This document shows positions 8,656-26,601 of a stretch of DNA of 64,000 nt, one piece after another. This stretch comes from a virus. Each line of letters opens with the position of its first letter. Position 1 is the first letter of the stretch. The stretch is from positions 1 through 64,000 of the IMG/VR virus record IMGVR_UViG_3300042509_001112; one strand, written 5' to 3'. The position numbers and the translations under genes were made by a program. Under the pieces are notes generated by a model that worked only from the letters and a program-made list of their open reading frames with translations, was not told the origin of the DNA and ran no database searches.

Positions 8656-8672
8656 CCTTAATTTATTAATTA

Positions 8673-10111: not shown

Positions 10112-10688
10112 TTATAGTATAAATTGTTATAATGAGTTTTTGACTTTCATCTGGACTAGGACTATATCTAGTAGGTATTTCTCTAATAAACTCAATAGAA
10201 TCGTCAGCACCTATTATAGTTTTTAAACAATCTAATAATACCTTACGATATATTAAAGCTAGATTATCTAAATCCCAATTGTTACTCCCTATTGGTTTAA
10301 TAAATTTTATATCAACACCTATTGGAAATAATTGTCTAGGTATTACTTTTAAATCTTTTAGATGTTTATAAAAGAACTTTTTAATTTCATAAGCAATTTT
10401 ATTTCTAAGATTATGATTAAGACCTACCCATATGTTTTGTCCAGATATTTTTTTATATCTTGGTTTACCTACACTACGGATATTTTTTAATATTTTTTCA
10501 TTTGTTTCAATATTTATAAGTTCACCTGCTTTATTAAAACTATGCTTATTATTTTGATACTTCTTAGGTATCTTATCTGTCTTCTTATAATAAACAGGTC
10601 TTCTTTTGTTACTAAGAGTTACATATTCTATGTAGTCCTCAATACTTACCTGATAGATTATATCTTTCTCTTCTATTCTGTATCCCAC
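10101..10688 (-). CDS. RusA-like Holliday junction resolvase
   Basis: WDLDNL...KVLLDCL...ADDS acidic catalytic pattern of the RusA family. Confidence 0.65.
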   Translation of the reverse strand: MGYRIEEKDIIYQVSIEDYIEYVTLSNKRRPVYYKKTDKIPKKYQNNKHSFNKAGELINIETNEKILKNIRSVGKPRYKKISGQNIWVGLNHNLRNKIAYEIKKFFYKHLKDLKVIPRQLFPIGVDIKFIKPIGSNNWDLDNLALIYRKVLLDCLKTIIGADDSIEFIREIPTRYSPSPDESQKLIITIYTINDK

Positions 10689-10708
10689 AATAATCTATAT
10701 TAAATGTG

Positions 10709-11731: not shown

Positions 11732-11785
11732 AACCTAGATTTATGTTAATTAATAATTAATTTAATTTATTTAATTTAGTATTGA

Positions 11786-12334
11786 TTAAAATGGTAGCGA
11801 ATCTATTTGATCAGTTACTTTAGCACCATTAGCTTCTACAGTAGCTTTATTTACACGTTTAAGATCATACTCAATATTTGGATTATAAGTAAGAGCACTC
11901 ATCTCAGATGTAACTGTCATAGGTTCAGCAAAATTAGGTAAACCTAATACAGTCTTAACATATACTTTACCATCACGTTGAGATACATATTCCTCACCTG
12001 TAAATTTCATTCTTAGTTTCTTACCACTAAGAATCTTATTAATATCTTGTAAAGTTGTTGCAGAATTAACTACATTCTCATCAACAACTTTAGTCATCAT
12101 ATGTTTTAGTTTCCTCATAGTATATTGAGGAGCATTACCTTCCATAGACATATCAATATTAAGTTCTGCACCATTATCTAAACTAAATGGTACACGAATT
12201 ACTGCTTTACCATTAGGAGTTGTTTCTGATGTGATTGTACCTATTGTTACATTATCATGTACTCCTGGTTTAACAGATGGTTTAACACTTGAACCTGATT
12301 GAACGTCACTGAAATTAAATGTAATATTACTCAT
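11786..12334 (-). CDS. Putative single-stranded DNA-binding protein
   Basis: Between AAA ATPase and primase; acidic C-terminus ending DSLPF typical of SSB tails; start moved to MSNITF. Confidence 0.6.
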   Translation of the reverse strand: MSNITFNFSDVQSGSSVKPSVKPGVHDNVTIGTITSETTPNGKAVIRVPFSLDNGAELNIDMSMEGNAPQYTMRKLKHMMTKVVDENVVNSATTLQDINKILSGKKLRMKFTGEEYVSQRDGKVYVKTVLGLPNFAEPMTVTSEMSALTYNPNIEYDLKRVNKATVEANGAKVTDQIDSLPF

Positions 12335-12398
12335 ATATTTGTTGTTTAAAAAGTTAAAAATAAATTGGATTATACTTATGTAAATTATTATATATCTA

Positions 12399-13145
12399 TT
12401 AATCAATATAGATTTTATCCCAATAAGTTTCTAGCTTATTGTTTTTCATAGTTGCTACTACAAGTTCTTGATTTCTCAAGTGTTCTGGTCTAGCACCGCA
12501 TGTTATTAAATCACTACTATTAAAATTAAGTATGGTATTATCACCATCTCTAGATAAGAAACCAATAGCATCTGCAGTTGAACACAATAAACTTTTAAGC
12601 TTACCTGTTAAATCAATATCAGCAGCCATAACTTCTTTACCTTTAATCTCAATAGATTTGTCTTTTAAATGACCTAAGAATATTACATTATGAGATAGAC
12701 TTTTAATATAGTCTACAACATCAAAGAATGCTTCTCTTAAGTATAAATAACCAGCACCGTTTGGTAATTTGAGTACACTTTCTCCATCAAAGTTCTTACC
12801 CATAGGGGTTTCTTTGTACTTTTTTATAGCAAGTGGCATTACCATATCTTCTAAAGCTGTAATAGTATCTACAGCAATATACTTATAAGGTCTGCCTGCT
12901 TTTTTAATTTCTTCACCATAAGTTTTAAGATCAGCTAGATCATTAATAGTTACCTTCATAGCATCTACAAAATCACTACCTTTCTCAAAATCTAGTAATA
13001 AACAATTATCTAATTGTGCAATTAGACTTGTTTTACCTGCTTTTGGTTTAGAATAAATTACCAATACTCCTGGAGATTTTCTACTAGGAGGAATCCTACT
13101 AGTTGGTAAAATAACCTTACTACTCTTTTCTACTTCTACACTCAT
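12399..13145 (-). CDS. AAA-family ATPase (Sak4/AAA_24-like)
   Basis: YSKPKAGKT Walker A, LLLDFEKGS, IAVDTIT Walker B, LPNGAGY. Confidence 0.8.
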   Translation of the reverse strand: MSVEVEKSSKVILPTSRIPPSRKSPGVLVIYSKPKAGKTSLIAQLDNCLLLDFEKGSDFVDAMKVTINDLADLKTYGEEIKKAGRPYKYIAVDTITALEDMVMPLAIKKYKETPMGKNFDGESVLKLPNGAGYLYLREAFFDVVDYIKSLSHNVIFLGHLKDKSIEIKGKEVMAADIDLTGKLKSLLCSTADAIGFLSRDGDNTILNFNSSDLITCGARPEHLRNQELVVATMKNNKLETYWDKIYID

Positions 13146-13163
13146 CTAGTTATTTTAATTGTT

Positions 13164-14216
13164 TTACTTTAATTTACTTAAATACTCTTGATATAAAGCA
13201 TCAGTCATTTCATCTACTTTAGGTAATTCTATAAATGTACCTGCTCTAGCATTAAATAGAGTACCTATTGCAATATTGTCAATAGATAATCTGTTTTTAA
13301 TAATCTTTAGCATTACAAAATTACTTCTAAAGTCATGAAGTTTATACTTTAGGCATTCTCTCATATCTAATTTCCAAGGATTCATTAGACCAATAACAAC
13401 ATCACTATCGTCATATGGATTTCTAGTATTCTTAAAATCAGATTGTTGAGGTGATATATCAACACCTTTAAGTTTACTACGTTCCACACTAGATAGTGAG
13501 TCATTAAATTGGCTAATATTAAAGAAACTCATACCAAACTGGTTGGACAATTCTACGCAATATTCAGACCACTTATCAATATTTTCCTTAACAGAGAAAC
13601 CTCTCTCTAAGCTCATTAAAGATAAGTGATCTAAAACTACTACGCATTGCCAATTTGGATTATAAGGTTTAAAGCTTACAATCTTTTGTTTCTGTTTACC
13701 TTCATGATCAGTATATGTTTCATAACTAAACTTACCATGTTTCTTACCATGTTCCCACAATGTAAAGTACATTCCAGTAGGGTTCTCTGGTTTAAAATAG
13801 AAGTTTATTCTAGAAAACATTTCTTCCATAAAAGGTATTTCCTTATTAACTATTTCTAGCTCAGATTGAGATAACCTATTCTGACCTAAGCCTTTAATTG
13901 TTTCAGGAGGGATTATAATTCCATATTTGTTGTAAATGATACTACTTAACCAATTACATTGTTTAGTAACTTTATCAATCTCATAAGAGTAATAAAACAC
14001 ATCTAGTTTTATACCTTTCTTATCAGCATCTTGAATAGCATTACTAATCATATAATCACATAAAGTTGTCTTACCAGTACCTGAATTACCACCGATAAGA
14101 GTCTTACACTTTCTTTGTACACCAAATATGTAATTATTCAATCTATTAAAACCATTAGATAGACCTTCATATTTACCTTCTAACCCCTCTTCTATCCTAA
14201 GTTTTAAATCACTCAT
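13164..14216 (-). CDS. dnaB: Replicative DnaB-like helicase
   Basis: GGNSGTGKT, YSYEI, VLDH, ISQFN, DSDVVIGL, KIIKNR. Confidence 0.85.
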   Translation of the reverse strand: MSDLKLRIEEGLEGKYEGLSNGFNRLNNYIFGVQRKCKTLIGGNSGTGKTTLCDYMISNAIQDADKKGIKLDVFYYSYEIDKVTKQCNWLSSIIYNKYGIIIPPETIKGLGQNRLSQSELEIVNKEIPFMEEMFSRINFYFKPENPTGMYFTLWEHGKKHGKFSYETYTDHEGKQKQKIVSFKPYNPNWQCVVVLDHLSLMSLERGFSVKENIDKWSEYCVELSNQFGMSFFNISQFNDSLSSVERSKLKGVDISPQQSDFKNTRNPYDDSDVVIGLMNPWKLDMRECLKYKLHDFRSNFVMLKIIKNRLSIDNIAIGTLFNARAGTFIELPKVDEMTDALYQEYLSKLK

Positions 14217-14225
14217 TCTTTACCT

Positions 14226-14870
14226 CTATACCCCTTCTAAATCATTACTTATTTTATATGTATCTTGATTATCATTAATACCTTGGACATAGGCTTCACA
14301 ATAACCAGATAACATACTAGTTCCATCTTTAATTATAAAGTATGGAGCTAATTTCATTTTATCATAGTTCCTTGCTTTACAATCATTAATATAATTCTTT
14401 GTGGCTTCTAGAATTATATCTTTTGTAAATTGAGGATTATCAATGATAAACTTATTCATTTTATTACTACAATCTTGTATACTACTCCTTACATAAAAAC
14501 CACCTGACTTTATACCTTTAGGAAACAAATCATAATATTCTTCTATCCAAGATACTTTATAAGGTATTAGTTTTTCATTACTAGGAGCACTCTTAACAAA
14601 TTCTTTAAAGATTAATTCTCCTTTAGAAGTTAATCTAAGATTGTTTGAATACAAATCTTCTAGTGATATCTTATTTTCATTTTGAACAATTCTACATATA
14701 AATTGTTTTTGTGTTAAATTACTTATTATATAATTAGTATAGGGTTCTACATCGTGATAATCACAAATAATATCAATATTTTTATTATATAACGAGTATA
14801 ATAAAACATATTCTTGAAAATCTATATTATTATTTAATAAGTTTTTAACTAATAAATGTAATTGACTCAT
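14226..14870 (-). CDS. Putative replication initiator / helicase loader-like protein
   Basis: Directly upstream of helicase; N-terminal winged-helix-like segment (LTSKG) and C-terminal IILEATKNYI..KLAPYFI segment. Confidence 0.45.
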   Translation of the reverse strand: MSQLHLLVKNLLNNNIDFQEYVLLYSLYNKNIDIICDYHDVEPYTNYIISNLTQKQFICRIVQNENKISLEDLYSNNLRLTSKGELIFKEFVKSAPSNEKLIPYKVSWIEEYYDLFPKGIKSGGFYVRSSIQDCSNKMNKFIIDNPQFTKDIILEATKNYINDCKARNYDKMKLAPYFIIKDGTSMLSGYCEAYVQGINDNQDTYKISNDLEGV

Positions 14871-15901
14871 AAATCATCATTATCAACAGATTGTTCAGCT
14901 TCATCATAACTTTCTAGCATATCAAAAAATGGATCATTAGCTGGAGGTTGTTCTACAGGAGTACTATTAACAGGAGTATTTTCAACAACAGCATTATTTA
15001 TCATTGCAGTTAAATAATCATTCATTGCATTAATAGATGTTCCAGTTGTAGAAGATAAATTACCAGTATTTAAGTGTCCAGACTTTAGTTTTATAGTATC
15101 AAATGCACTTTTATACATATTTATCTTTTTTTTATAATCTAAAGCTTTATATTCTTCACCCTCATTATGTGATTTAAAAATACTATTAAAACATTTTGAT
15201 TTATAGTTATAAAAATCATTTCTAGCTTCATCAATAAGATTACCATTTATAATTGATTCTTCAATATCTGATAATTCATTATCAATTTTATCAAGTTTAT
15301 TAGTATGTCTTTCTAAATTACTAGTTAATTTATTCTTTTCATTAAGTAGTTTATGATAATTAGAATCACTTCTTAAAATACATTCTTGAACATTTTTATA
15401 AGTATTTAGTCTAGAAGTATAATCTTGAAAAGTAACTGCTATATTATCTATTAAATTAGATATTTCTGAACTATTAGAATTAAAAAATACAATTGCAAAA
15501 TCAGAATTTTTATCTATTTTAATATCATAATCTTCTTCTAAATAAAAAGGAAAGTGATTATGCATACTATTAAAGTAAAATTCTACTCTTAATTTAGCAT
15601 TAAATATAGGTTGTAGTATATTTCTAATTAGTTCTTCAGCAAGATTATCGTGATTTGTATATGGACTAAAACCATCATTTACATCAACATTTACTAACTT
15701 TAAAGGTACTAAAATAGCTCTTTTATTTTGTGCTAATTTTATAAAATTAGTAATTTGATTGTCTTTTTTATTATCTTTAAAATTGTTATTTAAGTAATAT
15801 TTTATATTACTCATAACTTGAAAGTTTTTGTAAGTGGAATTAATAACTTCCCACACAGCGTTAAAAACAGTTTCTACGTTAGCTTTATTTTTATTATCCA
15901 T
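14867..15901 (-). CDS. Hypothetical protein with coiled coil and acidic tail
   Basis: 344-aa ORF. Confidence 0.6.
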   Translation of the reverse strand: MDNKNKANVETVFNAVWEVINSTYKNFQVMSNIKYYLNNNFKDNKKDNQITNFIKLAQNKRAILVPLKLVNVDVNDGFSPYTNHDNLAEELIRNILQPIFNAKLRVEFYFNSMHNHFPFYLEEDYDIKIDKNSDFAIVFFNSNSSEISNLIDNIAVTFQDYTSRLNTYKNVQECILRSDSNYHKLLNEKNKLTSNLERHTNKLDKIDNELSDIEESIINGNLIDEARNDFYNYKSKCFNSIFKSHNEGEEYKALDYKKKINMYKSAFDTIKLKSGHLNTGNLSSTTGTSINAMNDYLTAMINNAVVENTPVNSTPVEQPPANDPFFDMLESYDEAEQSVDNDDL

Positions 15902-15912
15902 ATTTTTAATTA

Positions 15913-16404
15913 TTATTCATACCAATTATTATAATCATCATAACTTCCTTGATTATAAGATTTTCTAGTTTTAAACATTTTTATTACATTAGTATAATCA
16001 TCAATATCTTCCATATCTGACCATACTATATTATACTTAGTTAATAAAGTATTTTTAATTGCGTTTGTTGTTATAACATCTATAAAATAAAAACTATAAT
16101 TATTTTCTGTAATTATTTTACTTATTGTTTTTAATAACACACCTTGACTTACAAATATCTCAGGAGTTTCTAAATTATATACACAAAAAGATTCAACAGA
16201 TAATAATTTTTGTATAACATTATCTAAACTAACATAATCATTATAAGTGTAATAATTTAGATTAGATGCTACTTGATAAATATTAGAGAATAAAACTGAT
16301 TTGGTATCAGCTTTATTCTCTTCAATTGTACTAACATAATCAATCGTATAATCAAAAGAAGTATTTACAATACTTTTTATATTTTTTTCAATAATTTTTA
16401 CCAT
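15913..16404 (-). CDS. Hypothetical protein
   Basis: 163-aa ORF. Confidence 0.55.
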   Translation of the reverse strand: MVKIIEKNIKSIVNTSFDYTIDYVSTIEENKADTKSVLFSNIYQVASNLNYYTYNDYVSLDNVIQKLLSVESFCVYNLETPEIFVSQGVLLKTISKIITENNYSFYFIDVITTNAIKNTLLTKYNIVWSDMEDIDDYTNVIKMFKTRKSYNQGSYDDYNNWYE

Positions 16405-16406
16405 AT

Positions 16407-17939
16407 TTAAGAAGTTAATATTTGTTCTAATCTAGATTTAATTTTAGGTACTTCTTCTTTATAAAAATTCTCATAAAACATAATCAAAGCTTTAGAATTA
16501 AATTTAGTTTTATAGAAATTATTTACATTATTAACTTGTAAATTAGTATTTCTACTAATTGTATCATAAAGTGCTCTTAATTTCTTTCTTTTATTATTAG
16601 AAATACTTTCTCCATATAAATTAACTAATTTCATGTAATCTTTATAAATACTTACATAAGCTTTCTTAGGTATTACTTGAAACTCATCATTTAAACTTCT
16701 AGCACTTACAACACAACTAAGATCATCATTAAAATCTATAGATTTAATTGTTAAAGCATGAGTAACATCTGGATTTTCACTAGAATTATAACAATTAAAA
16801 ATATAATACAACTTATCAGCTTTAATTTTAACATTGAATTTATCAATATCTTTCTTAGCTCTTAAGAAGAAGTGATCTTTATTACTTTTATCAATATTAA
16901 TATAAACATCTAAGTTAGTATTAGTATTATCATCAGTATCACTATCACTAAAATTTATAAAAGTTTTAGGTTTTTTTCTAAAAGAAGTTTGATTACTATT
17001 TTTAGTATTACCTATAATTTTTAAATCAGACTTAGGAGCTTCTAGAATTTCTATTGTAAAATCAAAGTTAGTATTAACTTTTCTTTTAATCTCAGTATTT
17101 GCTTTATTATCAATACTAATAATTTTAGCTTCTGATGGTTTATCTTTAGGACCTTCTAGTTGTAATTGACTAGTTGGAGTTGGTGAATTACGAATAGAAT
17201 TTAAAGCTTTACCCCACCAATGAGAGTAAATACTATTTATATCATCATAATCATCAATATCATTACTAGTATTTTTTATTTCAACACCTCCTCTATCATT
17301 ATAAAGACCATTAGAATAACCTTTATTACTAAATAAGAAGCCTTTCTCAGAAACAAAATTACCTGCTCTAATCAACTCTCTATCAGGAAACATAAAACAT
17401 ACTTTCTGACCTACTAAGTCTTGATTAATACTACTAGTAAAAGCATCTTCACCTTTTAGTTTTAACTCAGCAATCTCTTTATCTGATCCAAAATTAGTAT
17501 AAGCCCAATTAAAACTATCACTTAAATCTGAAGCAATATCATAATAACTACTATGATAGAAAATACCATTATGAGCAAATACACCTGTTTCTATATTATC
17601 ACTATCTAAAGTTAAAATAGAACCTTTAGGACCTTCAGTAGGTAATTCTCCTAACACATAAGGATGTTGGTTATAAGTACTTTTATTACCAGCAGTGCCT
17701 TGTCTAAGGTGAATCATTAACTCATCACCAGGTTGAATATCACAAGATTTTAACCACTTATAAAATTCATCTACAGTTTGATTATAATAACCTTTATTTA
17801 GCATAAGAGTGTTGGAGAGCTGTTTTCTAACAGCTCCGCCAATACCATCTCTATTAAAAGTTATTCCATTATTTACAGACCAGATTACAAATTCATGGTC
17901 ATACACTACATTACTTGGTTTTATTATCAGTAAACACAT
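16407..17939 (-). CDS. Class II (Ntn) glutamine amidotransferase with long C-terminal extension
   Basis: N-terminal MC nucleophile, NRDGIG, IHLRQGTAG, NQHPY, FAHNG, SDS. Confidence 0.8.
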   Translation of the reverse strand: MCLLIIKPSNVVYDHEFVIWSVNNGITFNRDGIGGAVRKQLSNTLMLNKGYYNQTVDEFYKWLKSCDIQPGDELMIHLRQGTAGNKSTYNQHPYVLGELPTEGPKGSILTLDSDNIETGVFAHNGIFYHSSYYDIASDLSDSFNWAYTNFGSDKEIAELKLKGEDAFTSSINQDLVGQKVCFMFPDRELIRAGNFVSEKGFLFSNKGYSNGLYNDRGGVEIKNTSNDIDDYDDINSIYSHWWGKALNSIRNSPTPTSQLQLEGPKDKPSEAKIISIDNKANTEIKRKVNTNFDFTIEILEAPKSDLKIIGNTKNSNQTSFRKKPKTFINFSDSDTDDNTNTNLDVYINIDKSNKDHFFLRAKKDIDKFNVKIKADKLYYIFNCYNSSENPDVTHALTIKSIDFNDDLSCVVSARSLNDEFQVIPKKAYVSIYKDYMKLVNLYGESISNNKRKKLRALYDTISRNTNLQVNNVNNFYKTKFNSKALIMFYENFYKEEVPKIKSRLEQILTS

Positions 17940-19801
17940 TAGGATATTAGTTGTTTAATATTAAGTTTTTCATTTGTTGACTCTACATCAATATCTTCAT
18001 CAGCTGTTACACTAAAGATTTGTGTTCTAGAATCAATGAATTCATTTAATTTTCTATAAGATTTAGGATAAACTTTTTTAATTACATTTTTAAGTGTAAT
18101 AGGTTCTTTATTATTATCAAACATAATATAGTTATTAATTATATCTTTATGATAATTTTCAGAAAAGTTTACAATAGCCATACAAATCTTTACCCAGTTC
18201 TTAATTTTAATAAAATTAGTACTAGCATTAAAAGGTCTAAATTCTACTGTATAACAAGGAGGATTAGTATTTCTAGTATTAAATAAAGCTGGAATAAAAT
18301 TAATCCAACAATATCTAATATTACTATGATTGTAACCTACTTTAGCACCTCTAGGATGATTTTTAGTTTTATTAACTTTATCACTAGGAGGACAATCTGC
18401 TGCTAAAGTAAACAATTCTGTGTAATAATTATCTATTCTAATCTTTAAATCCATAACACTTGTGCAGTTATTGAAATTAAAATCTAGATTAGGTAACTTT
18501 CTACAATATTCATTATTACCTCTACTTGCAGGTAGCATATTGAAAATATCTTTTTCTAATGCTTTAGCAAGTTTAAAGAGCATAACGATATTAGCATTAT
18601 TAAAGTTAGCATTACCAATGTGAGTATGAATACCACATGTATAATTAATCTCACTTCTTTTAGCTAATTCAGTACAAATGTACTGCAGATGTTCAAAGCC
18701 TTTATCGCCTTTAAGAACACCTGTAATGACTTCTGGACCATACTTTTCACCTCTAGTATTTTTAATACTACCGTCTTTCTCTACTTTAATATTCATATCA
18801 GTAAAGAAATGTGGTGGAAAGCAACAGTCAGCCATTTCTATTTCTACACCGAAGGTATATTTAAGACCTTCTGTAATAAGATGAGTATTAGAATCTAAAC
18901 CAAATCTATAATTATGATTTATATCATTAGTTTTATCTTGAAGATTACTAAACTCAGGAAAATAATAACCATTTGGATATTGGCAATAATTATCATCCTT
19001 TTTCAATCTATCTTTTCTAACTATCATACCTGATTTTGGACCTATTATAAATATTTTTTTATAAGCTTCTAAAAATTCTTTACCATTTATTAAAAAAAGT
19101 TTTGATTGACTATCAAGACCTGCTAAATTTGGAAAATACTTTAAAGGTATTGTTAATAAATTAGAAAAATCATTATTATTTACAGATACCTTAGTAAAAG
19201 ATGTTAGAGCATTTATATTACTTTCAGTAATAATCTCTGGATTATCTACTAAATTTGCTATATAAGCATTTTTAATTTTATTATAAGGATAATAGATACC
19301 ATTAATATAACACTGTGTATAAGCAGCATATGCTCCATATTTCATTACTTCTGTTTTAGGAACAACTGTAATATGATTAATACCAATACAAACTTGAACG
19401 CAATTAGATTTACTTACCAACTTACCTTGGTATACTATCATATTGCTAAGTTTATCTTCACTACCAAAACAATCTTTAACCATAATATCAGGATCGTTTT
19501 CATATACTCTTTTCTTCTTTTGTAAAAAGTATTTTTTATAATCTTTTTTATAATAGAATTCTAAAACATTTTCACAAAGCACTTCTACAATTTGTTTTTT
19601 ATTATTGATTAGACCTATTCGATAAAATTCAGTTTTATTAGGTTGAGAAATAGTATTGAATGTTATAATTTTCCACTTTTCTTTAGGATTTTGAGTTATT
19701 TTTATAAAATCACCTATAAAGTATTTTACATCATTTATTTGAATATAATCAAATCCATTTATTGTACCTCTAGTTACTACGCCAACATTTGTTTTTTCCA
19801 T
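17939..19801 (-). CDS. Putative amidoligase (Amidoligase_2, glutamine synthetase-like fold) with N-terminal extension
   Basis: TFGVEIE, KDGSI, GPEVIT, CGIHTHIG, RYCWIN, TVEFR. Confidence 0.85.
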   Translation of the reverse strand: MEKTNVGVVTRGTINGFDYIQINDVKYFIGDFIKITQNPKEKWKIITFNTISQPNKTEFYRIGLINNKKQIVEVLCENVLEFYYKKDYKKYFLQKKKRVYENDPDIMVKDCFGSEDKLSNMIVYQGKLVSKSNCVQVCIGINHITVVPKTEVMKYGAYAAYTQCYINGIYYPYNKIKNAYIANLVDNPEIITESNINALTSFTKVSVNNNDFSNLLTIPLKYFPNLAGLDSQSKLFLINGKEFLEAYKKIFIIGPKSGMIVRKDRLKKDDNYCQYPNGYYFPEFSNLQDKTNDINHNYRFGLDSNTHLITEGLKYTFGVEIEMADCCFPPHFFTDMNIKVEKDGSIKNTRGEKYGPEVITGVLKGDKGFEHLQYICTELAKRSEINYTCGIHTHIGNANFNNANIVMLFKLAKALEKDIFNMLPASRGNNEYCRKLPNLDFNFNNCTSVMDLKIRIDNYYTELFTLAADCPPSDKVNKTKNHPRGAKVGYNHSNIRYCWINFIPALFNTRNTNPPCYTVEFRPFNASTNFIKIKNWVKICMAIVNFSENYHKDIINNYIMFDNNKEPITLKNVIKKVYPKSYRKLNEFIDSRTQIFSVTADEDIDVESTNEKLNIKQLIS

Positions 19802-21366
19802 GAATCTACAGCATTTATTAATAAACTACTTGTTTTTTCTTTTAATTCATCTAAAGTATTACTTGCAGCTTTCATTGCAGCTATACTCATAGCATCAGCT
19901 TCTTCTGCTAATACATCTGTAAGATCATTGATAGTTATAATCATATCTTCAGCTATATCAAATAAAGCAGACATTTCTTTGTTATCAAAAGTTTTCATCA
20001 ATTTTGTTAACTCATCAGAAGTTAATAAATGATTATCTACTATATATTGACCTATAAAAGATTCTTGTGTAAATAAATTAGTTTGAGAATCAGATTCACC
20101 AAATCCATTTGTTTTATTTTTTAAGAAACTATTAATAGTATCATCATAAACATTGTATTTAGATATTTCTGTAGTTTCAGTAGGTCTTAAATACTTAGCT
20201 TGTACATCATAGTATTCATTATCCATAGAACTTAAACAATTAAGCAATTTCTCACCTTTACTGTTAATACGTTCTATATGTCTAATACTAACTACATCAC
20301 CTCTATTAAATACAATTTTATCTGGGTTATTAACATCAGTTAACTTCTTCATTACTACAACATAACTATCAACCATAGCATCTAATGGTTTATTAGGTTG
20401 ATTATAATAAAAATTAAAAGGTAACGAAGTCATTGTTTTACCTTCACTATTTTCAATAGTAAGAGTTTGTTTCTCATGATTTACTTCTTTTAATAAATAG
20501 TAACTATTTGTAGTTATATCAAAATCTGTATTATTTTTAGCTGGTATATATCTATCAGATTTAATCCAATTATTAAGATACTTACTCCAATAGTTAAAAT
20601 GAGCTCCTGTTAAAGCATTGTCGCTGCTATTATTATTGTTATGACTATGATTATTATTGCTGTTATTTTGATATAATCTATAGGGTCTACAGGGAATAAT
20701 AAGTTCTTTAATTATTTTACCCTCAAAGATAGTATATAAAGTATTAGTATTAAATTCTTTAATATCAGTACAATCAATAGCTTCTAGAGATTCTTCAAGA
20801 CTACTAATATACATACCTTCATCACTCATACCATAAAACAAAGGTCTTTGATTATTTAATCTAAAAGTCATTAAGAAACTATTTTGTTGACCTTTCTTTA
20901 ATTTAATATTCTTATCACCAATTAATAAACTAGCAGAACCATCAATTTCAGAAAGTATCTTAGTATTAAAATTAGTATCTAAGATTTTGTGCAAAACTTG
21001 AGTATCTGTTGTATAATCAGAAGCACTAATTCCATGTTTATATGCTAAATTAGTATAGTTATTTAATGTACCGTTATGAGCTAAAACAGCATTATCACCT
21101 ACAAAAGGATGTGCTACATTTAGCATATTTTTACCTATAGTACCTTGTCTAACATGACCTATAAGCATATAATCCTCTTGAATTGTTTTAAAGTCTTTAG
21201 TAAGAAATTTAGTTGCTTGATCTAAAGATTTTACTAAATTATTTTCAGGACTCCAAAAACCTGAAGCATCTTTACCTCTATCTTGATTATAAAGAAATAA
21301 AGTCTTTATTTTATTTTTATCAAACTTTTGACCTTTATGACCTGAAAAACCTAATAATCCACACAT
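19777..21366 (-). CDS. Class II (Ntn) glutamine amidotransferase with long C-terminal extension
   Basis: MCGLLG, RGKDASG, GHVRQGT, AHPF, AHNGTL, TDTQ, RPLF. Confidence 0.88.
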   Translation of the reverse strand: MCGLLGFSGHKGQKFDKNKIKTLFLYNQDRGKDASGFWSPENNLVKSLDQATKFLTKDFKTIQEDYMLIGHVRQGTIGKNMLNVAHPFVGDNAVLAHNGTLNNYTNLAYKHGISASDYTTDTQVLHKILDTNFNTKILSEIDGSASLLIGDKNIKLKKGQQNSFLMTFRLNNQRPLFYGMSDEGMYISSLEESLEAIDCTDIKEFNTNTLYTIFEGKIIKELIIPCRPYRLYQNNSNNNHSHNNNNSSDNALTGAHFNYWSKYLNNWIKSDRYIPAKNNTDFDITTNSYYLLKEVNHEKQTLTIENSEGKTMTSLPFNFYYNQPNKPLDAMVDSYVVVMKKLTDVNNPDKIVFNRGDVVSIRHIERINSKGEKLLNCLSSMDNEYYDVQAKYLRPTETTEISKYNVYDDTINSFLKNKTNGFGESDSQTNLFTQESFIGQYIVDNHLLTSDELTKLMKTFDNKEMSALFDIAEDMIITINDLTDVLAEEADAMSIAAMKAASNTLDELKEKTSSLLINAVDSWKKQMLA

Positions 21367-21406
21367 ATTTTTATTTTTAAATTTATAATTTTGTTTTTAA
21401 TTTTAA

Positions 21407-22291
21407 TTATCCTACTACTACTTTAGTAGCTGGTTCAGCTATTGTTTGATTAATATTATATTTATCACAAAGATATTGAGCTATTTCAACGTCATTGTTA
21501 TTAATACAATTAATAATTGCTTGACAATCTTCAATATGTTCATCCATTACAAAACCATTATTAATAGCTTCAATAGCTGCAAAAGTATTATCAAATACCC
21601 ACTTAACATGTTCTGGAGATTGAAACCAGAATTGACCTAGAGTTCTAAGTTCAGTAGTTACGCTACCAATTCTATGTTCACCAGCTTTACCATAAAGTTT
21701 TCTTCTTAAACTACCATTAGTATTAATTAGAATACTTGGAATAGTAAGATACAAATCCAATACTCTAATAAGATTAATAGAAGTTTCATAATTCATATTA
21801 GCATATGAAATATGTAAATGACCACCCACAGATCTAAGATTACTATCTGTAGCACTAGGTCTTGGATTTACTTCTAAATCCCAAGCATTCATACTAGGAC
21901 TGCAACCAAATTCTTTAGCAATAGGATTATCTAATTCTTTATCACTAAAGACAGCAGCATCTGGACTACCATCATTAATTACTTCAATATTTAATCCTTT
22001 AGAAGCAAATTCTTTATTGATAAAATCAATAATAAACATACAATCATTATACATCTTAGTATAATGATTAGTTGGAGGTAAAGTAAGCTCTAATGCTACG
22101 TTATCCTCTTGTACACCATAACCATCTTTAATAAATCTAGGTGAATCTTTACTACCACCTATAAGACCAATACCTGATACATATTCTTTTGTTGTTTTAT
22201 CTCTTAAAAAGAATTCTGGATCACTACCTAATCTTACATTTTCAATTTTAGTAAGATTATTTTTATCTAATTTTATTACAATATTTTTCAT
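21407..22291 (-). CDS. phiEco32-like COOH-NH2 ligase type 2
   Basis: LGSDPEFF, QEDNVALE, FGCSP, RSVGGHLHI, RRKLYGKAG, ELRTL. Confidence 0.87.
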   Translation of the reverse strand: MKNIVIKLDKNNLTKIENVRLGSDPEFFLRDKTTKEYVSGIGLIGGSKDSPRFIKDGYGVQEDNVALELTLPPTNHYTKMYNDCMFIIDFINKEFASKGLNIEVINDGSPDAAVFSDKELDNPIAKEFGCSPSMNAWDLEVNPRPSATDSNLRSVGGHLHISYANMNYETSINLIRVLDLYLTIPSILINTNGSLRRKLYGKAGEHRIGSVTTELRTLGQFWFQSPEHVKWVFDNTFAAIEAINNGFVMDEHIEDCQAIINCINNNDVEIAQYLCDKYNINQTIAEPATKVVVG

Positions 22292-22299
22292 AGTATAAT

Positions 22300-23055
22300 T
22301 TAAAAGTTTAACAAATTTAATTTTTTATTAGTTTTTTTATTGCTTTTAGACAATAGATACTGAATCAACGTATTACTAAAGTCATCAAAAGTCATTCTTT
22401 CAGGATGATATTGCACACCTATAATATTTAATTCATTATGCATAAAAGCTTCTACAATGTAATGATTACCTTCAGTAAAGGTATATTCTACATCTTTGTT
22501 TACAAGTAAAGGAGTTAAATCAGGATTTTTAGATAAGCTTTCTAGAGTAACACCTTGATGATGATAACTATTAACTTTATATACATTTTTAAATGTAGTA
22601 CCATTAAATTCTTGATATATTTTGTTAACTGCAATAGAATTAACTTTACAAGTATTTACATCTTCTTTATCACTACTACCACTATAACCATGGTAAGCAC
22701 TAACATTTTGAATTAAAGGCACACCAAAATGTATTGCAAGTTGTTGCATACCTAAACAAATACCAAAGATAGGTATATTAGCATTAATATACTGAGGTAA
22801 ATTTACTTTAGCAAAATAATCCTTATAAGGATCTGCCATACTATTTTGAAAACTTGGTACTTGATTGTAGTTATAAGACATAGTATCTGCACCACCTGGT
22901 AATACTACTAAATCTAAATCAGTTCTAATATTACTATTTGGTGTTAGTATTTCTACTTGACCAAAATTACTTAAGTATTCTAAATATGCTTTTTGTACAC
23001 CAAAACTATTATCACCTAATGACCAACCTGGTATTCCTATTAATTTTTTACTCAT
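22300..23055 (-). CDS. Class I glutamine amidotransferase-like (peptidase C26 / gamma-glutamyl hydrolase family)
   Basis: LPGGAD, GICLGMQ nucleophile elbow, VNSYHHQ, GVQYHPE (Cys-His-Glu triad). Confidence 0.9.
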   Translation of the reverse strand: MSKKLIGIPGWSLGDNSFGVQKAYLEYLSNFGQVEILTPNSNIRTDLDLVVLPGGADTMSYNYNQVPSFQNSMADPYKDYFAKVNLPQYINANIPIFGICLGMQQLAIHFGVPLIQNVSAYHGYSGSSDKEDVNTCKVNSIAVNKIYQEFNGTTFKNVYKVNSYHHQGVTLESLSKNPDLTPLLVNKDVEYTFTEGNHYIVEAFMHNELNIIGVQYHPERMTFDDFSNTLIQYLLSKSNKKTNKKLNLLNF

Positions 23056-23056
23056 T

Positions 23057-23965
23057 TTAATTTAATTTATTTGCTTTTAATAATCTTAATTTTGAATATA
23101 AACTTTCAGCTGATTGTGGATCAGTTAAAAGTTTATACAATTTTGTATATTCTTTTAAAGTATATGTTTGAGAATAAGTACTATCTTTAGTAAAAAAGTT
23201 TTTACAATTATCTTGATCTTTTAATTTTAATCTTAAATTAGATGTATTTATAATTCTATTAATTTTACTAATAACAATAAAACTTTGATCAAGAGTTAGA
23301 CCTACACTATAACTAATAAAACTATTATAGTTACTAATGCGATGAAAACCTTTATGACCAGTTACACAATCAGTAGGTATCATTCTATTAGCAACTTGAT
23401 ATAAAAAGAAAAGATCTAATTTATTTTCAAATAAATCACAGAGTTCAATAAATCTTGCTGGAACATGTAATTGATAGTTTAAAATTAAACTTCTAATAGC
23501 TTGCCAATGAAGTATTAACCAAGATTTTTCATTTGGTTCAATATCACTATAATCCATTTCTATATAGACATGAGTTTTAGTTATATTCTTAATACTCCAA
23601 GGTGACCCCATCTTTTGTAATAAAGATACATATTTTTCTATATATTCTATATTAGAATATTTATCTTTTAATGGGTTAACAAACTTATCTAATTCAATAA
23701 ACATCTGAAGATATGTATCACTATAAATATATTTAGTACCAGCATAGTAAGCATCTGATAATAATAATTTATTATTGTAAGATTTTTGAAAGTCTTGCCA
23801 TATAAATTGACAACAATTTTCAATACATTGTTTTAAATTTATTTTAGATGTTTTATCAAATAACAATAAGTTACCTAATGCTTGATCACTTTTACTTAAA
23901 AAATCATCTGGTAATGTTTTTAAACAAGATTCAATTTTTACACTAACTGCTTCTTCAATTTCCAT
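23057..23965 (-). CDS. Hypothetical protein within amidoligase cluster
   Basis: 302-aa ORF overlapping the ATP-grasp gene. Confidence 0.6.
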   Translation of the reverse strand: MEIEEAVSVKIESCLKTLPDDFLSKSDQALGNLLLFDKTSKINLKQCIENCCQFIWQDFQKSYNNKLLLSDAYYAGTKYIYSDTYLQMFIELDKFVNPLKDKYSNIEYIEKYVSLLQKMGSPWSIKNITKTHVYIEMDYSDIEPNEKSWLILHWQAIRSLILNYQLHVPARFIELCDLFENKLDLFFLYQVANRMIPTDCVTGHKGFHRISNYNSFISYSVGLTLDQSFIVISKINRIINTSNLRLKLKDQDNCKNFFTKDSTYSQTYTLKEYTKLYKLLTDPQSAESLYSKLRLLKANKLN

Positions 23966-24824
23966 TATTATTTCCTTTTTTAATAATTAACTTAGGTAAT
24001 ATTTCAATATACTTAGTAGCTACAATACTAATATCGTCATTAGTACTAGATAAACTACTTGCACTATTACATTCTAATAGAATATATTCTTGATATTCTC
24101 TTGGTTTACCATTACCTTTAGTAGCACTTTGTACTCTAACATCAAAACTAAGAATATCAGCTTTAATATGTTTTAAAGCTTTAACACAATCTTCAACAAT
24201 ATCATTCCAAGAATTAGGTTTATTAAATTGAGGATTAGATTCAAGTAACCAAACACAATTAGAATCATTTCTATACCAAGATTCTTCTTCAGCAGTATCA
24301 CTCTTTAAAGCTTTTCTACAAGTATAAAAACAACCATCTTCAGTTACATGTAATCTATATTCTAAAGCATAGTTATAGAACTTCTCAAAGATATAGTTAG
24401 ATAAATTCTTATTGTTTATCCACTTATTAAGTTGTTCCATATTATGTAATAAAGTATTACCTTCACCGCGACTACCATATATATGTTTAGCTACAATAGG
24501 AAAGTTTTCATTAGCCCAATCATTTAGAGCTCCATCTGTCCACATATCAGCTGTACAAACATCTGCTTGTATAAAAGCTTGTTTCATTAGTTTTTTATTA
24601 GAGCTAATTTTAATAGCATCTACAGTATTAATCTCAATCCTTTTACCACCATGAGCTACAGTATCATACATTTCAGTAGTACTACCCAATCTAATTACAC
24701 TTTTAAAAGGTGTAAGAGAAAGGTTAGTTCTAAGTATAGAATGACTAGGATGTCTTGATTTAATTTGTGGTCTAAATTTTGTAAATTTGGGTTTAAGCTG
24801 TTTGGACTTCTTTACTGTTGACAT
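23955..24824 (-). CDS. ATP-grasp amide-bond ligase (RimK/YheCD-like)
   Basis: SSNKKLMK, FPIVAKHIYGSRGEG, IFEKF, EYRLHV, SFDV, ILLECNSAS. Confidence 0.8.
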   Translation of the reverse strand: MSTVKKSKQLKPKFTKFRPQIKSRHPSHSILRTNLSLTPFKSVIRLGSTTEMYDTVAHGGKRIEINTVDAIKISSNKKLMKQAFIQADVCTADMWTDGALNDWANENFPIVAKHIYGSRGEGNTLLHNMEQLNKWINNKNLSNYIFEKFYNYALEYRLHVTEDGCFYTCRKALKSDTAEEESWYRNDSNCVWLLESNPQFNKPNSWNDIVEDCVKALKHIKADILSFDVRVQSATKGNGKPREYQEYILLECNSASSLSSTNDDISIVATKYIEILPKLIIKKGNNNGN

Positions 24825-25551
24825 TGTTATTATTAATTAATTGTGAGTAATCTAACTTATATCCTATTATACCTAAGTTATGAGTACTAGTATCACCTCT
24901 AAGATTACTAAAATCTTGTGGTAATGGTCCGTACTTTAATATATTTTTAAGTTTAGGTAAAGCTTGTTTAACCAAACTTATATCATCCATAAAAGCATTA
25001 AATTTTTCTAACCATTCAATAGGATCTTTCATAGTATTATCATAAAATTGTCCTACTCTAAGTAATAAAGAGTATAAACTTATCATGTAAGTACTTGTAG
25101 TCCATATTATAGGTACTTCTATAAAGTATAGATTATCTGATACTTCAACAATTGTTGTATTATCAAAAGCATCAAGATCTAAATGTTCTTCTATTTGATT
25201 CATAAAGAACTCTAAGTTTTTATAGTTCTTTTTTAATCTTTCAACATCTTTTAAATATGTAGTAGTGTTGTATTGATGACTATATTTATATGGACATATT
25301 GATATTGCGATATAACCAAACTTTTTATCAAATATGTCTTGTTTACCTTCTAAACGACAACCATATGCACTAATAGGTTTATTAGTATGTTCAGCAAATA
25401 TAACATCATTTAGATAATCTTTACAAGGACTAATAGGTTGTATTGTTTCAAATACATCATTTTTTACTTTCTTCAAAAAAGCAAAACCCATTTGATTACT
25501 TCTACCTTCAGAAAGTTTAGAACGGCATTGTTTGTTTACTATTTGTATCAT
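24793..25551 (-). CDS. Hypothetical protein within amidoligase cluster
   Basis: ORF with CKDYLND and W..STYMISLYSLLLR segments; start probably MIQIVNK. Confidence 0.6.
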   Translation of the reverse strand: MIQIVNKQCRSKLSEGRSNQMGFAFLKKVKNDVFETIQPISPCKDYLNDVIFAEHTNKPISAYGCRLEGKQDIFDKKFGYIAISICPYKYSHQYNTTTYLKDVERLKKNYKNLEFFMNQIEEHLDLDAFDNTTIVEVSDNLYFIEVPIIWTTSTYMISLYSLLLRVGQFYDNTMKDPIEWLEKFNAFMDDISLVKQALPKLKNILKYGPLPQDFSNLRGDTSTHNLGIIGYKLDYSQLINNNNVNSKEVQTA

Positions 25552-26209
25552 AAATAACTTTTTTAACGTTTTTAATAAGAGTTGGATAATGTTTACCATT
25601 GTATTCTAAATAAACTATATTTGTATTGTTAATTAATTTACCTGTTTTTTTATCTGCGTATTTATGCTTACGAGATATTAGATTAATAACTTTACAAATA
25701 GTATTTTTAGATATAGGTAATTTTTTAGAGTTAACTAATTTAACAAAATCACCTACTCTAATATTTAAATTAGGTTTATGTACTTGTAATACTATTTTAG
25801 GTTCAGTAAATAAATACTCACAATCACTTTCTACAAACCTAAGTTTCTTATTATCAGGTGTTGTTATTACGATTGTATTTCTAGATATACCATCAATTTT
25901 ACATACATAATTTTCTTCTAATTTAAAAGGAAACTCTTTACCTACTAATTTTGATTTAATTTTTCTATAATTAAAAATATTTGCAGATTCTTCAAAATTT
26001 TTAATTTTTACTTTTTTAGAATAATATTTTATTACTGTTGTGTTATCAATAGGAAAACAATTACTCCTATAAATAAGCCTATATGTATTTTTTGATAAAT
26101 CATATATAATATATTCATTATCATCGTTAGGCTTACTAGCTACAATACCGTATACTGGGATAACAGATATTAATTTAACTAGACTTCCGAAAGGTAATGA
26201 CTTTAACAT
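25517..26209 (-). CDS. Hypothetical basic protein, possibly tandem SH3/KOW-like beta domains
   Basis: Repeated short beta-rich units (FGSLVKL, IRVGDFVKL). Confidence 0.5.
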   Translation of the reverse strand: MLKSLPFGSLVKLISVIPVYGIVASKPNDDNEYIIYDLSKNTYRLIYRSNCFPIDNTTVIKYYSKKVKIKNFEESANIFNYRKIKSKLVGKEFPFKLEENYVCKIDGISRNTIVITTPDNKKLRFVESDCEYLFTEPKIVLQVHKPNLNIRVGDFVKLVNSKKLPISKNTICKVINLISRKHKYADKKTGKLINNTNIVYLEYNGKHYPTLIKNVKKVIYDTNSKQTMPF

Positions 26210-26601
26210 TATTTTAATTTTTTAAATTCTTCATAAAGATAATCTATTAAATGAATTTTATGTGGTTTTTTAGTATACATAGTATTAATTGCCCAGTTTA
26301 AATGAGATCCATACCAATTATCTTTTTCTCCTAATTTAAAAAAAGTTTTATAAATTTTTTCAGATAAATGTAATAAACAAAATTCAAACCAATGAATATT
26401 AATTAAAATACATCTACCTGTTTTTATTGTATCATCTGAAAAAGACAATATATTACCAAAGTTTGGAGTATCAGACCAATTGTCTGTAAAATATTCATCT
26501 GTATTAAATGTAAATTTTATTTCTTTATATTCAGGAAATAATGTTTTACACATTTCTAATAATTTAGATTTGTGCTTTTCTGTTAATGCTAATGGTTTCA
26601 T
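26209..26601 (-). CDS. Hypothetical protein, paralog of 28529..28846
   Basis: LTEKHKSKLLEMCKTLFP...IHWFEFC...LYEEFKKLK shared with 28529..28846. Confidence 0.7.
   Translation of the reverse strand: MKPLALTEKHKSKLLEMCKTLFPEYKEIKFTFNTDEYFTDNWSDTPNFGNILSFSDDTIKTGRCILINIHWFEFCLLHLSEKIYKTFFKLGEKDNWYGSHLNWAINTMYTKKPHKIHLIDYLYEEFKKLK

What the first reader, a model, noticed from the sequence alone, without database searches (positions are those of the whole stretch)
16407..25551. 9-kb cluster of three glutaminase-type enzymes and three amide-bond ligases of two folds
Seen: contiguous, translationally coupled genes for Ntn-GATase, Amidoligase_2, a second Ntn-GATase, phiEco32-type COOH-NH2 ligase, class I GATase/peptidase C26, an unknown, an ATP-grasp ligase and another unknown. 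Catalytic motifs look intact. Both Ntn-GATases and the amidoligase have ~300-aa extra domains. Established: amidoligase/GATase/ATP-grasp neighbourhoods are known from phiEco32-like phages and were predicted to make peptides or modify the cell envelope; to my knowledge the product is uncharacterised. Inference: an unusually complete pathway for a gamma-glutamyl/amidated peptide or envelope/protein modification (superinfection exclusion or anti-defence) inserted between helicase and polymerase genes.
Basis: partly seen in the sequence, partly recalled or inferred. Interest (0 to 1): 0.75.

Follow-up and report, generated by a model that had tools for sequence, protein, structure and literature searches.

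The report
Phage amidoligase cassette, freshwater crAss-like variant
Eight back-to-back genes in an uncultured freshwater crAss-like phage are an enlarged copy of a cassette of amide-bond-making and glutamine-cleaving enzymes that hundreds of phages carry beside their replication genes; it has been known from genome analysis since 2009, but its product has never been identified.

Summary
On the minus strand, 16407-25551 carries eight tightly packed genes. In order they are unknown B, a RimK-like ATP-grasp (C), unknown D, a class I GATase/peptidase C26 (E), a phiEco32-type COOH-NH2 ligase (F), an Ntn-GATase (G), an Amidoligase_2 (H) and a second Ntn-GATase-like protein (I). They lie between the DNA polymerase and DnaB genes of a complete 97.8-kb crAss-like phage.

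This is the phiEco32/LUZ24-type "gamma-glutamyl amide / peptidoglycan-modification" cassette. It is already annotated in crAssphage cr108_1, and this scan has noted it in at least 159 genomes, including crAss-like ones. In 80 IMG/VR loci anchored on F, the ATP-grasp is present in 74, Ntn-GATase in 77, Amidoligase_2 in 77 and the C26 GATase in 60. Amidoligase_2 and Ntn-GATase are directly adjacent in 73 of 76.

New points:
- Unknown B belongs to an undescribed family of more than 140 proteins. Its confident model weakly resembles GS/GCS/PafA-type ligases. D shows a fainter version of the same resemblance.
- I is a real Ntn-GATase relative that Pfam misses.
- D and the roughly 300-aa extensions of G, H and I were found only in this small clade.
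- This genome has no GGCT, no ThyA-type hydroxymethylase and no Tet/JBP gene.

The product remains unknown. This is a variant of a known kind, of modest interest.

The parts
24793..25551 (-). B: 252-aa protein of an undescribed family (the ORF is open to 25599, but homologues start at Met17). It is a candidate stripped-down GS/GCS/PafA-like fold and a cassette member usually next to the ATP-grasp.
   Evidence: There are more than 140 homologues and none has a Pfam domain. The AF2 model has pLDDT 94.9 and pTM 0.91. Foldseek against PDB gave nothing. In VIA-align the top 16 rows are all GshAB, PafA, Dop, GS, YbdK or GCS, at Z 6.5-4.0 with 149-176 residues aligned. There is no profile similarity to F. 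It is found with F/E/C in diverged loci and is adjacent to C in 16 of 21 loci.
23955..24824 (-). C: RimK-like ATP-grasp ligase, 289 aa
   Evidence: phrog_2599 E 5.4e-21. NCBIfam hits are weak and below cut-off: CPS-like 5e-5 and rimK_fam 2.5e-4. It is 43% identical to the cr108_1 ATP-grasp. A family member in L022 carries PF08443 RimK. The family is present in 74 of 80 F-anchored loci.
23057..23965 (-). D: 302-aa protein of unknown function, restricted to this clade
   Evidence: Only 8 representatives exist among 1.84 billion proteins. The AF2 model has pLDDT 84 and pTM 0.87. The best structural rows are weak: PafA Z 3.8, Dop Z 3.4 and GshAB Z 3.2, with 176-182 residues aligned. There is no profile link to B or to the unknowns of other cassettes.
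22300..23055 (-). E: class I glutamine amidotransferase / peptidase C26, 251 aa, with the Cys-His-Glu triad motifs present
   Evidence: PF07722 E 4.5e-22 and PF00117 E 3.4e-19. The motifs GICLG and HPE are in the sequence. E lies within 1 kb of F in 53 of 60 loci. A sister genome carries a group I intron at the active-site codons.
21407..22291 (-). F: phiEco32-type COOH-NH2 ligase (GCS/GS superfamily), 294 aa
   Evidence: PF14395 E 2.6e-11 and phrog_3815 E 6.4e-57. It is 40.5% identical to the cr108_1 COOH-NH2 ligase. Invariant residues are D24, E26, D63, N64, E68, H158, H160, R196, R207, E214 and R216.
19777..21366 (-). G: class II (Ntn) glutamine amidotransferase domain (aa 1-220) plus a 300-aa C-terminal region without a family
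   Evidence: GATase_6 E 3.4e-9, TIGR01134 purF aa 2-218 E 7e-15 and phrog_4736 E 1.2e-17. Cys2, Arg73, Asn98-Gly99 and Asp121 are present in the sequence. G overlaps H by 25 nt.
17939..19801 (-). H: Amidoligase_2 (GS/GCS superfamily) domain at aa 339-544, preceded by a 330-aa N-terminal region found only with this domain in 15 proteins
   Evidence: PF12224 E 1.7e-17 and phrog_2443 E 1.8e-23. All N-region homologues carry PF12224. The Atlas gave no hit for aa 1-320. H is adjacent to an Ntn-GATase in 73 of 76 loci.
16407..17939 (-). I: second Ntn-GATase-like protein (aa 1-220) plus a 290-aa clade-specific C-terminal region
   Evidence: No family or PDB hit. Only 18 homologues. The catalytic set is invariant. 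Atlas: GATase_4/6, score 0.95. hhalign to G covers the motif region only, probability 54%. Iterated HMMs from I and from G give near-equal hit counts. A second Ntn ORF downstream of Amidoligase_2 is found in 17 of 80 loci.

Best explanation
This is the crAss-like, enlarged version of the phiEco32/LUZ24-type phage amidoligase cassette. It is a co-transcribed set of soluble cytoplasmic enzymes made with the replication genes. The enzymes build, amidate and trim glutamate/glutamine-type amide bonds on a substrate that is still unknown.

Inferred working model: the enzymes act as couples.
- The Amidoligase_2 (H) activates a carboxylate with ATP as an acyl-phosphate. It is served by the flanking Ntn enzymes (G and I). 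These either deliver ammonia from glutamine, converting carboxylate to amide, or remove a gamma-glutamyl handle.
- The COOH-NH2 ligase (F) works in the same way with the class I GATase/C26 hydrolase (E). This matches the experimentally known logic of a GS-like ligase paired with a GATase-like gamma-glutamyl hydrolase, as in PuuA/PuuD and EgtA/EgtC.
- The RimK-like ATP-grasp (C), together with its usual neighbour B, adds a further amino-acid residue.

What is shown: gene content, intact catalytic motifs, conservation and adjacency. What is inferred: the coupling, the chemistry and the nature of the target. The most likely target is a small glutamate-derived amide or peptide, or a peptide tag on a protein.
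For: - Family assignments. Intact motifs.
- Synteny: the same gene order is found in crAssphage cr108_1 (ATP-grasp, two unknowns, GATase, COOH-NH2 ligase, GATase II, amidoligase homologue). Related sets occur in UFV-P2, GAP52 and Lbo-JY46.
- Co-occurrence in 80 F-anchored IMG/VR loci: C 74, E 60, Ntn 77, H 77.
- Adjacency: H next to Ntn in 73/76 loci whatever the order, B next to C in 16/21, E within 1 kb of F in 53/60.
- All eight proteins lack a transmembrane-grade hydrophobic stretch.
- The whole 9.1-kb block is kept without frame-breaking indels in lake metagenomes from other studies. One contig spans it with 32 differences. In the 40 best-supported variant sites shown, the catalytic parts of G, F and E carry only synonymous changes.
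Against: - No experiment anywhere defines the substrate.
- Adjacency fits both ammonia channelling and ligase/hydrolase cycles, and does not choose between them.
- The ATP-grasp call for C rests on PHROG and sub-threshold NCBIfam scores.
- The GS-like fold of B (Z 6.5) and of D (Z 3.8) is below the level at which the aligner's own notes allow a firm fold call. Neither has any sequence-profile support.
- GGCT, frequent in other versions of the cassette, is missing here.
- No RNA data were available.
Confidence: 0.6

Rival explanations
1. Peptidoglycan-precursor modification for superinfection exclusion, as proposed in 2009 and 2013. The ligases and amidotransferases would alter the peptide stem of cytoplasmic murein precursors, for example by amidation of D-Glu or mDAP or by addition of residues. 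The infected cell's envelope would then change and exclude other phages.
For: This is the reading given in the literature (PMC5498523; PMC10580990; Pfam's description of PF14395). All proteins are soluble, so they could act on cytoplasmic precursors. Amidation of a stem-peptide carboxylate by a ligase plus a GATase has an experimental precedent in MurT/GatD (established knowledge).
Against: None of the ligases is a Mur-ligase homologue. No envelope-directed gene is seen in the cassette. The block is expressed within the replication operon of a lytic-type phage, where late envelope remodelling would give little benefit. Nothing found here ties it to murein.
Confidence: 0.15
2. Protein tagging. 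The GS/PafA-like and ATP-grasp ligases would attach glutamate-type residues or a short peptide to a host or phage protein, in the manner of RimK-type glutamylation or Pup-like gamma-glutamyl isopeptides. The GATase-type enzymes would act as the matching deamidases or de-tagging hydrolases.
For: C is RimK-like, and RimK glutamylates ribosomal protein S6. PafA and Dop are among the top structural rows for B, and are the top two rows for D. The clade-specific extensions of about 300 aa on G, H and I could be target-docking domains.
Against: The structural scores are weak. No Pup-like small protein or precursor ORF lies in the block, because the genes abut. Both Ntn enzymes keep the Arg and Asp that hold a free alpha-carboxylate and alpha-amino group of Gln or a gamma-Glu moiety. 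That fits small substrates as well as tags.
Confidence: 0.15
3. Nucleic-acid or nucleotide modification. The cassette would decorate a DNA base or a nucleotide or cofactor with an amino-acid-derived amide, protecting phage DNA or restoring a depleted cofactor.
For: The cassette sits constantly among replication and nucleotide-metabolism genes in unrelated phages. Amidoligase and amidotransferase genes are reported next to thymidine-hypermodification genes in viral contigs (PMC8989533). In GAP52 and Lbo-JY46 the cassette lies beside NAMPT/PncB and PRPP synthetase genes.
Against: The complete genome has no ThyA-type hydroxymethylase and no Tet/JBP. It has only ThyX, so no known route to a 5-hydroxymethylpyrimidine precursor. 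No kinase- or transferase-like family was found in the cassette or in 20 unknown neighbours from other loci. NAD-salvage genes are not seen among this window's replication neighbours that I scanned.
Confidence: 0.1

Closest known systems
phiEco32 / LUZ24 / PaP3 / RIO-1-type phage amidoligase cassette. Predicted by Iyer, Abhiman, Burroughs and Aravind in 2009; named 'gamma-glutamyl amide or unusual peptide bond operon' by Hardies et al., and 'peptidoglycan modification cassette' in PMC5498523.
   Same: It has the same five enzyme families: PF14395 COOH-NH2 ligase, PF12224 Amidoligase_2, Ntn-GATase next to the amidoligase, RimK-like ATP-grasp, and class I GATase/C26. The genes are co-directional, tightly packed and lie in the early/replication arm. 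It includes accessory proteins of unknown function. The product is unknown.
   Different: The gene order is B-C-D-E-F-N-H-N rather than E-F-x-H-N-C. This genome has no GGCT. There is a second Ntn-GATase. The H, G and I proteins are larger, with clade-specific regions of about 300 aa. The host phage is crAss-like and from fresh water, not a small podovirus of Proteobacteria.
crAssphage cr108_1 (NC_055878, Steigviridae, Pipoluvirus) genes gp028-gp034
   Same: This is the closest annotated relative: F is 40.5% identical and C 43%. The order ATP-grasp, two unknowns, GATase, COOH-NH2 ligase, GATase II, amidoligase homologue is the same, and it lies within the replication module.
   Different: cr108_1 has no I-type second Ntn gene, and no sequence-detectable B or D. 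Its two unknowns are paralogues of each other. One 300-aa cr108_1 protein is a weak Foldseek match to B, E 0.11, which is a lead only. In cr108_1 a UDG gene follows the cassette; this genome has no UDG match.
Gamma-glutamylation pathways of bacteria: PuuA/PuuD (putrescine), EgtA/EgtC (ergothioneine), and GS-like ligase plus GATase-like hydrolase pairs for aniline, isopropylamine and 1-naphthylamine
   Same: A GS/GCS-fold ATP-dependent ligase is paired with a class I (C26) or class II (Ntn) GATase-type gamma-glutamyl hydrolase. E's best Pfam family is Peptidase_C26. The 1-naphthylamine GS and gamma-glutamylmethylamide synthetase are among B's structural rows.
   Different: There is no orthology. 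All scores to these enzymes are far below family cut-offs. No oxidase, decarboxylase or other intermediate-modifying enzyme is recognisable in the cassette. This comparison concerns working logic, not membership.

Membership tests
phiEco32/LUZ24-type phage amidoligase cassette | A PF14395 (phiEco32-like COOH-NH2 ligase type 2) gene | tested here: met
   F scores 43.7 bits against a cut-off of 25, E 2.6e-11. The own-genome search gives 39.2 bits, over the cut-off.
phiEco32/LUZ24-type phage amidoligase cassette | A PF12224 Amidoligase_2 gene directly adjacent to a class II (Ntn) glutamine amidotransferase gene | tested here: met
   H scores 64.5 bits against a cut-off of 22. G overlaps H by 25 nt and I by 1 nt. 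The same adjacency is found in 73/76 loci.
phiEco32/LUZ24-type phage amidoligase cassette | A RimK-like ATP-grasp ligase in the same co-directional block | tested here: met
   phrog_2599 E 5.4e-21. C is 43% identical to the cr108_1 ATP-grasp. Pfam gives no hit for C itself and the NCBIfam hits are sub-threshold.
phiEco32/LUZ24-type phage amidoligase cassette | A gamma-glutamyl cyclotransferase (GGCT/AIG2) gene. This member is frequent but not universal. | tested here: not met
   PF06094 and PF13772 give no match at E <= 1 in the complete genome. GGCT is present in only 30 of 80 sampled cassettes, so it is optional.
phiEco32/LUZ24-type phage amidoligase cassette | Location in the early/replication arm of a tailed phage | tested here: met
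   The block lies between the DNA polymerase and DnaB/Sak4/primase genes. The phage has crAss-type terminase, portal and capsid genes.
phiEco32/LUZ24-type phage amidoligase cassette | A defined biochemical product | not testable with these tools
   No product is known for any member (paper searches).
Class II (Ntn) glutamine amidotransferase, for protein I | N-terminal nucleophile Cys directly after the initiator Met, plus the Arg, Asn-Gly and Asp glutamine-binding set | tested here: met
   Arg79, Asn124, Gly125 and Asp141 are invariant in all 15 homologues. Cys2 is present in 13 of the 15; the other two rows start later. The residues align with the R73/N98-G99/D121 set of G.
Class II (Ntn) glutamine amidotransferase, for protein I | A score over the threshold of a curated GATase model | tested here: not met
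   There is no Pfam, NCBIfam or PHROG hit. Support comes only from the Atlas (0.95), hhalign at 54% and near-equal hit counts from iterated HMMs.
GS/GCS/PafA carboxylate-amine ligase superfamily, for proteins B and D | Shared fold with solved members | tested here: inconclusive
   For B, the top 16 VIA rows are all from this superfamily, but at Z 6.5-4.0. For D, Z is 3.8-3.2. Foldseek finds nothing. The tool's notes say Z under 8 may reflect only a common arrangement.
GS/GCS/PafA carboxylate-amine ligase superfamily, for proteins B and D | Sequence-profile similarity or the metal/ATP-binding Glu/His/Arg motifs | tested here: not met
   hhalign gives probability below 1% for B family against F family and for B against D. 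The PDB profile search is empty. B does have invariant charged residues (R10, E15, D45, E54, R165, with H224 nearly invariant), but I could not map them on an active site.
Phage thymidine/cytosine hypermodification pathways | A source of 5-hydroxymethylpyrimidine (ThyA-type hydroxymethylase or Tet/JBP dioxygenase) | tested here: not met
   PF00303 and PF12851 give no match at E <= 1 in the complete genome. Only ThyX is present.
Phage thymidine/cytosine hypermodification pathways | 5-HMUDK kinase and aGPT-Pplase transferase genes | not tested
   I did not have reliable accession numbers for these families. None of the scanned neighbours matched any kinase or transferase family.

The most novel reading that the evidence does not exclude
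B, and possibly D, are miniaturised GS/PafA/Dop-fold enzymes. The cassette would then contain four or five ligase-fold proteins and would work as a phage-encoded, Pup-like gamma-glutamyl tagging and de-tagging system for proteins. The clade-specific 300-aa extensions would serve as target adaptors. This would be the first such system in phages of Bacteroidota.
Probability: 0.08. Interest if true: 0.8.

Novelty: new variant of a known kind. Interest (0 to 1): 0.3.

Why it matters
The cassette is one of the most widespread enzyme sets in tailed phages whose product is still unknown. In IMG/VR, 339 stretches encoded a relative of the anchor ligase alone.

This copy adds comparative constraints rather than a solution:
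- It shows which genes travel as couples: Amidoligase_2 with Ntn-GATase, COOH-NH2 ligase with C26 GATase, and ATP-grasp with B.
- B is a large undescribed family with a confident, possibly ligase-like fold.
- A complete genome with the cassette can lack every known entry point to DNA hypermodification.

These points help in choosing experiments in cultivable carriers. The window's own phage is uncultured, so it does not make the question more testable by itself.

Tried and rejected
- PDB sequence or profile searches gave nothing usable: none for I, C, F and H, and only a designed helical protein at E 1.2 for B.
- Foldseek against PDB gave no match for B or D.
- The Atlas search for H aa 1-320 gave no usable hit.
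- hhalign found no link (probability below 1%) for B against F, B against D, or B and D against the unknowns of the cr108_1, UFV-P2, GAP52 and Lbo-JY46 cassettes. Those unknowns fall in unrelated PHROGs or in none.
- Pfam on 20 unknown ORFs inside other cassettes found only ATP-grasp, C26 and DUF6501.
- B and GGCT look mutually exclusive (1 locus with both; Fisher p 1.8e-4). I considered B a functional substitute for GGCT. On the F tree the pattern follows two large clades and the independent-pairs test has no power, so this stays a lead only.
- u214 (14226-14870) co-occurs with the cassette in 20 loci. It is a winged-helix-like protein just upstream of DnaB, so I rejected it as a cassette member.
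This genome has no UDG match.
- The promoter/terminator scan was at or below shuffled background.
- No RNA holder was listed among sequencing runs, so expression was not assessed.
- The Iyer 2009 paper (PMC3268129) is not held. Its content is cited through later papers and Pfam descriptions.

Full report
**What is there.** The window is the first 64 kb of a complete 97,846-bp IMG/VR virus record. Terminase, portal and a 497-aa major capsid protein are present. The capsid protein matches only crAss-like phages of Bacteroides, Flavobacterium and Cellulophaga, at about 32% identity.

Genes from about 3 to 40 kb run leftward. From 16407 to 25551 eight ORFs abut or overlap:
- B, 252 aa from Met17
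- C, 289 aa
- D, 302 aa
- E, 251 aa
- F, 294 aa
- G, 529 aa
- H, 620 aa
- I, 510 aa

Upstream are ThyX, a DNA polymerase and two unknown ORFs. Downstream are three unknown ORFs, then DnaB-like helicase, Sak4, primase, exonuclease and RNR genes. No promoter or terminator signal above background splits the block.

**Checking the calls.**
- Pfam, PHROGs and NCBIfam confirm H as Amidoligase_2 (aa 339-544), G as an Ntn-GATase (aa 1-220), F as a phiEco32-type COOH-NH2 ligase and E as a class I GATase/peptidase C26.
- C is a RimK-like ATP-grasp by PHROG only; its NCBIfam hits are sub-threshold.
It has only 18 homologues in 5.8 billion proteins. Its N-terminal 220 residues keep Cys2, Arg79, Asn124-Gly125 and Asp141, which is the set found in G as Cys2, Arg73, Asn98-Gly99 and Asp121.
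- Three further results support I: the Atlas places it next to viral GATase_4/6 clusters; hhalign links the motif region to G; and HMMs iterated from I and from G reach 95 and 94 ORFs in 77 loci each.
- I accept I as a divergent Ntn-GATase-type enzyme.
- The extensions of about 300 aa on G, H and I are real. By my searches H's and I's are confined to 15-18 proteins and G's to 6 of the 80 sampled loci.

**It is a known cassette.**
- F's best annotated match is crAssphage cr108_1. There an ATP-grasp, two unknowns, a GATase, the COOH-NH2 ligase, a GATase II and an amidoligase homologue stand in the same order inside the replication module.
- LUZ24-like UFV-P2, 7-11-like GAP52 and Leptolyngbya phage Lbo-JY46 carry related sets.
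[quoted passage not shown] It traces the idea to Iyer et al. 2009. I found no experiment on its product.
- Earlier notes of this scan describe the same cassette in at least 159 genomes, crAss-like ones included. I treated these as leads only.

**Distribution and internal structure.** A scan of IMG/VR with F found 339 stretches that encode a relative, of which the best 80 loci were kept. Among those 80 loci:

| Component | Loci with it (of 80) |
|---|---|
| ATP-grasp (C) | 74 |
| Class I GATase (E) | 60 |
| Ntn-GATase | 77 (17 with two copies) |
| Amidoligase_2 (H) | 77 |
| B | 21 |
| GGCT | 30 |

- Two layouts dominate: E-F-x-H-N-C(-B or -GGCT), and (B-)C-x-E-F-N-H(-N).
- Whatever the order, Amidoligase_2 and an Ntn-GATase are adjacent in 73 of 76 loci. 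B touches the ATP-grasp in 16 of 21, and E lies within 1 kb of F in 53 of 60.
- This is the basis for the 'three couples' model. The window's N-H-N arrangement and its full set of parts make it one of the largest versions, but not a unique one.
- It lacks GGCT.

**The unknowns.**
- B belongs to a family of more than 140 proteins with no Pfam domain. B also occurs beside F and E in minimal trios such as F-B-E.
- Its AlphaFold model is confident (pLDDT 94.9). Foldseek finds nothing in the PDB.
- The exhaustive aligner lists, as its first 16 rows, only GshAB, PafA, Dop, glutamine synthetases, YbdK and GCS, at Z 6.5-4.0 over 149-176 residues. That is consistent, but below a safe fold call. There is no profile similarity to F.
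- In the viral library the only strong match is another uncharacterised phage protein. Weak rows fall on a 290-aa GAP52 protein and a 300-aa cr108_1 protein, sizes that fit unknowns of those phages' cassettes. This is a lead, not a result.
- D has only eight representatives in 1.84 billion proteins. Its model is good (pLDDT 84), with similar secondary-structure order. PafA and Dop are the top two rows and GshAB the fourth, but at Z 3.8-3.2.

**What it probably does.**
- All eight proteins look soluble.
- Both Ntn enzymes keep the residues that hold the free alpha-amino and alpha-carboxylate of glutamine or a gamma-glutamyl group.
- F and H keep the metal, His and Arg motifs of GS/GCS ligases.
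- The best-supported reading is a cytoplasmic pathway that forms acyl-phosphate-activated amide bonds. It then either amidates carboxylates with glutamine-derived ammonia or uses and removes gamma-glutamyl handles, as in the PuuA/PuuD and EgtA/EgtC pairs.
- The target is unknown.
- The known routes of DNA hypermodification are unlikely here. The complete genome has ThyX but no ThyA-type hydroxymethylase and no Tet/JBP, and no recognisable kinase or transferase in or near the cassette.
- Murein-precursor and protein-tag targets remain open.

**Conservation in nature.**
- The 9.1-kb block occurs nearly identically in 19 further lake or freshwater runs from about 13 studies.
- One contig spans it with 32 substitutions and no indel. 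The only indel seen is an in-frame 3-nt insertion in H.
- Of the 40 best-supported variant sites shown (72 more were not listed), I counted 18 synonymous and 23 non-synonymous effects, because one site lies in two overlapping genes. The changes in the catalytic parts of G, F and E are all synonymous, and 8 of the 9 changes in H are non-synonymous, 7 of them in its N-terminal extension. This is a small sample.

**Verdict.** It is a clade-specific variant of a known, biochemically unsolved cassette.

Noticed in passing
L007:11366-11620 (sister genome IMGVR_UViG_3300011113_000265); the equivalent window position is about 22747-22755, inside gene E: A near-identical sister phage carries a group I intron (Rfam RF00028, 91 bits, E 4e-24) inside the class I GATase gene. 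It is inserted directly behind the codons of the nucleophile motif GICLG. The window's copy has no intron. The DNA polymerase gene of that sister genome is also split into two ORFs.
   Followed up: partly
window 14226-14870 (-): A 214-aa protein just upstream of DnaB has weak MarR-type winged-helix matches in its N-terminal part. It is conserved downstream of the cassette in 20 of 80 loci. It is probably a replication initiator or helicase-loading protein rather than a cassette member.
   Followed up: partly
window 25517-26209 (-): A 230-aa unknown directly upstream of B has a hydrophobic N-terminal stretch (Kyte-Doolittle 19-residue mean 1.77). Homologues lie near the cassette in 8 of 80 loci. 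It may be a membrane-anchored partner, or it may be unrelated.
   Followed up: no
window 26209-26601 (-): This 130-aa unknown has a 40%-identical homologue in Leptolyngbya phage Lbo-JY46. Homologues lie near the cassette in three further loci (L027, L028, L075). In the B-anchored locus L009, which covers the same contig as L027, one lies between B and the ATP-grasp.
   Followed up: no
window 20372-20676, inside gene G: An Asn-rich low-complexity linker (NNSNNNHSHNNNNSS) separates the Ntn domain from the C-terminal region. This bin attracts many unrelated metagenome contigs, giving a depth spike, so depth there is not informative.
   Followed up: no
L002 (Leptolyngbya phage Lbo-JY46, PP438436) 8444-20508 and L003 (GAP52) 1-2289: In these two cultured phages the cassette lies next to PRPP synthetase and nicotinate/nicotinamide phosphoribosyltransferase genes. 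The two unknowns upstream of the PRPP synthetase gene in Lbo-JY46 (L002 8444-9187 and 9191-9949) are paralogues of each other, as are the two unknowns inside the cr108_1 cassette.
   Followed up: no
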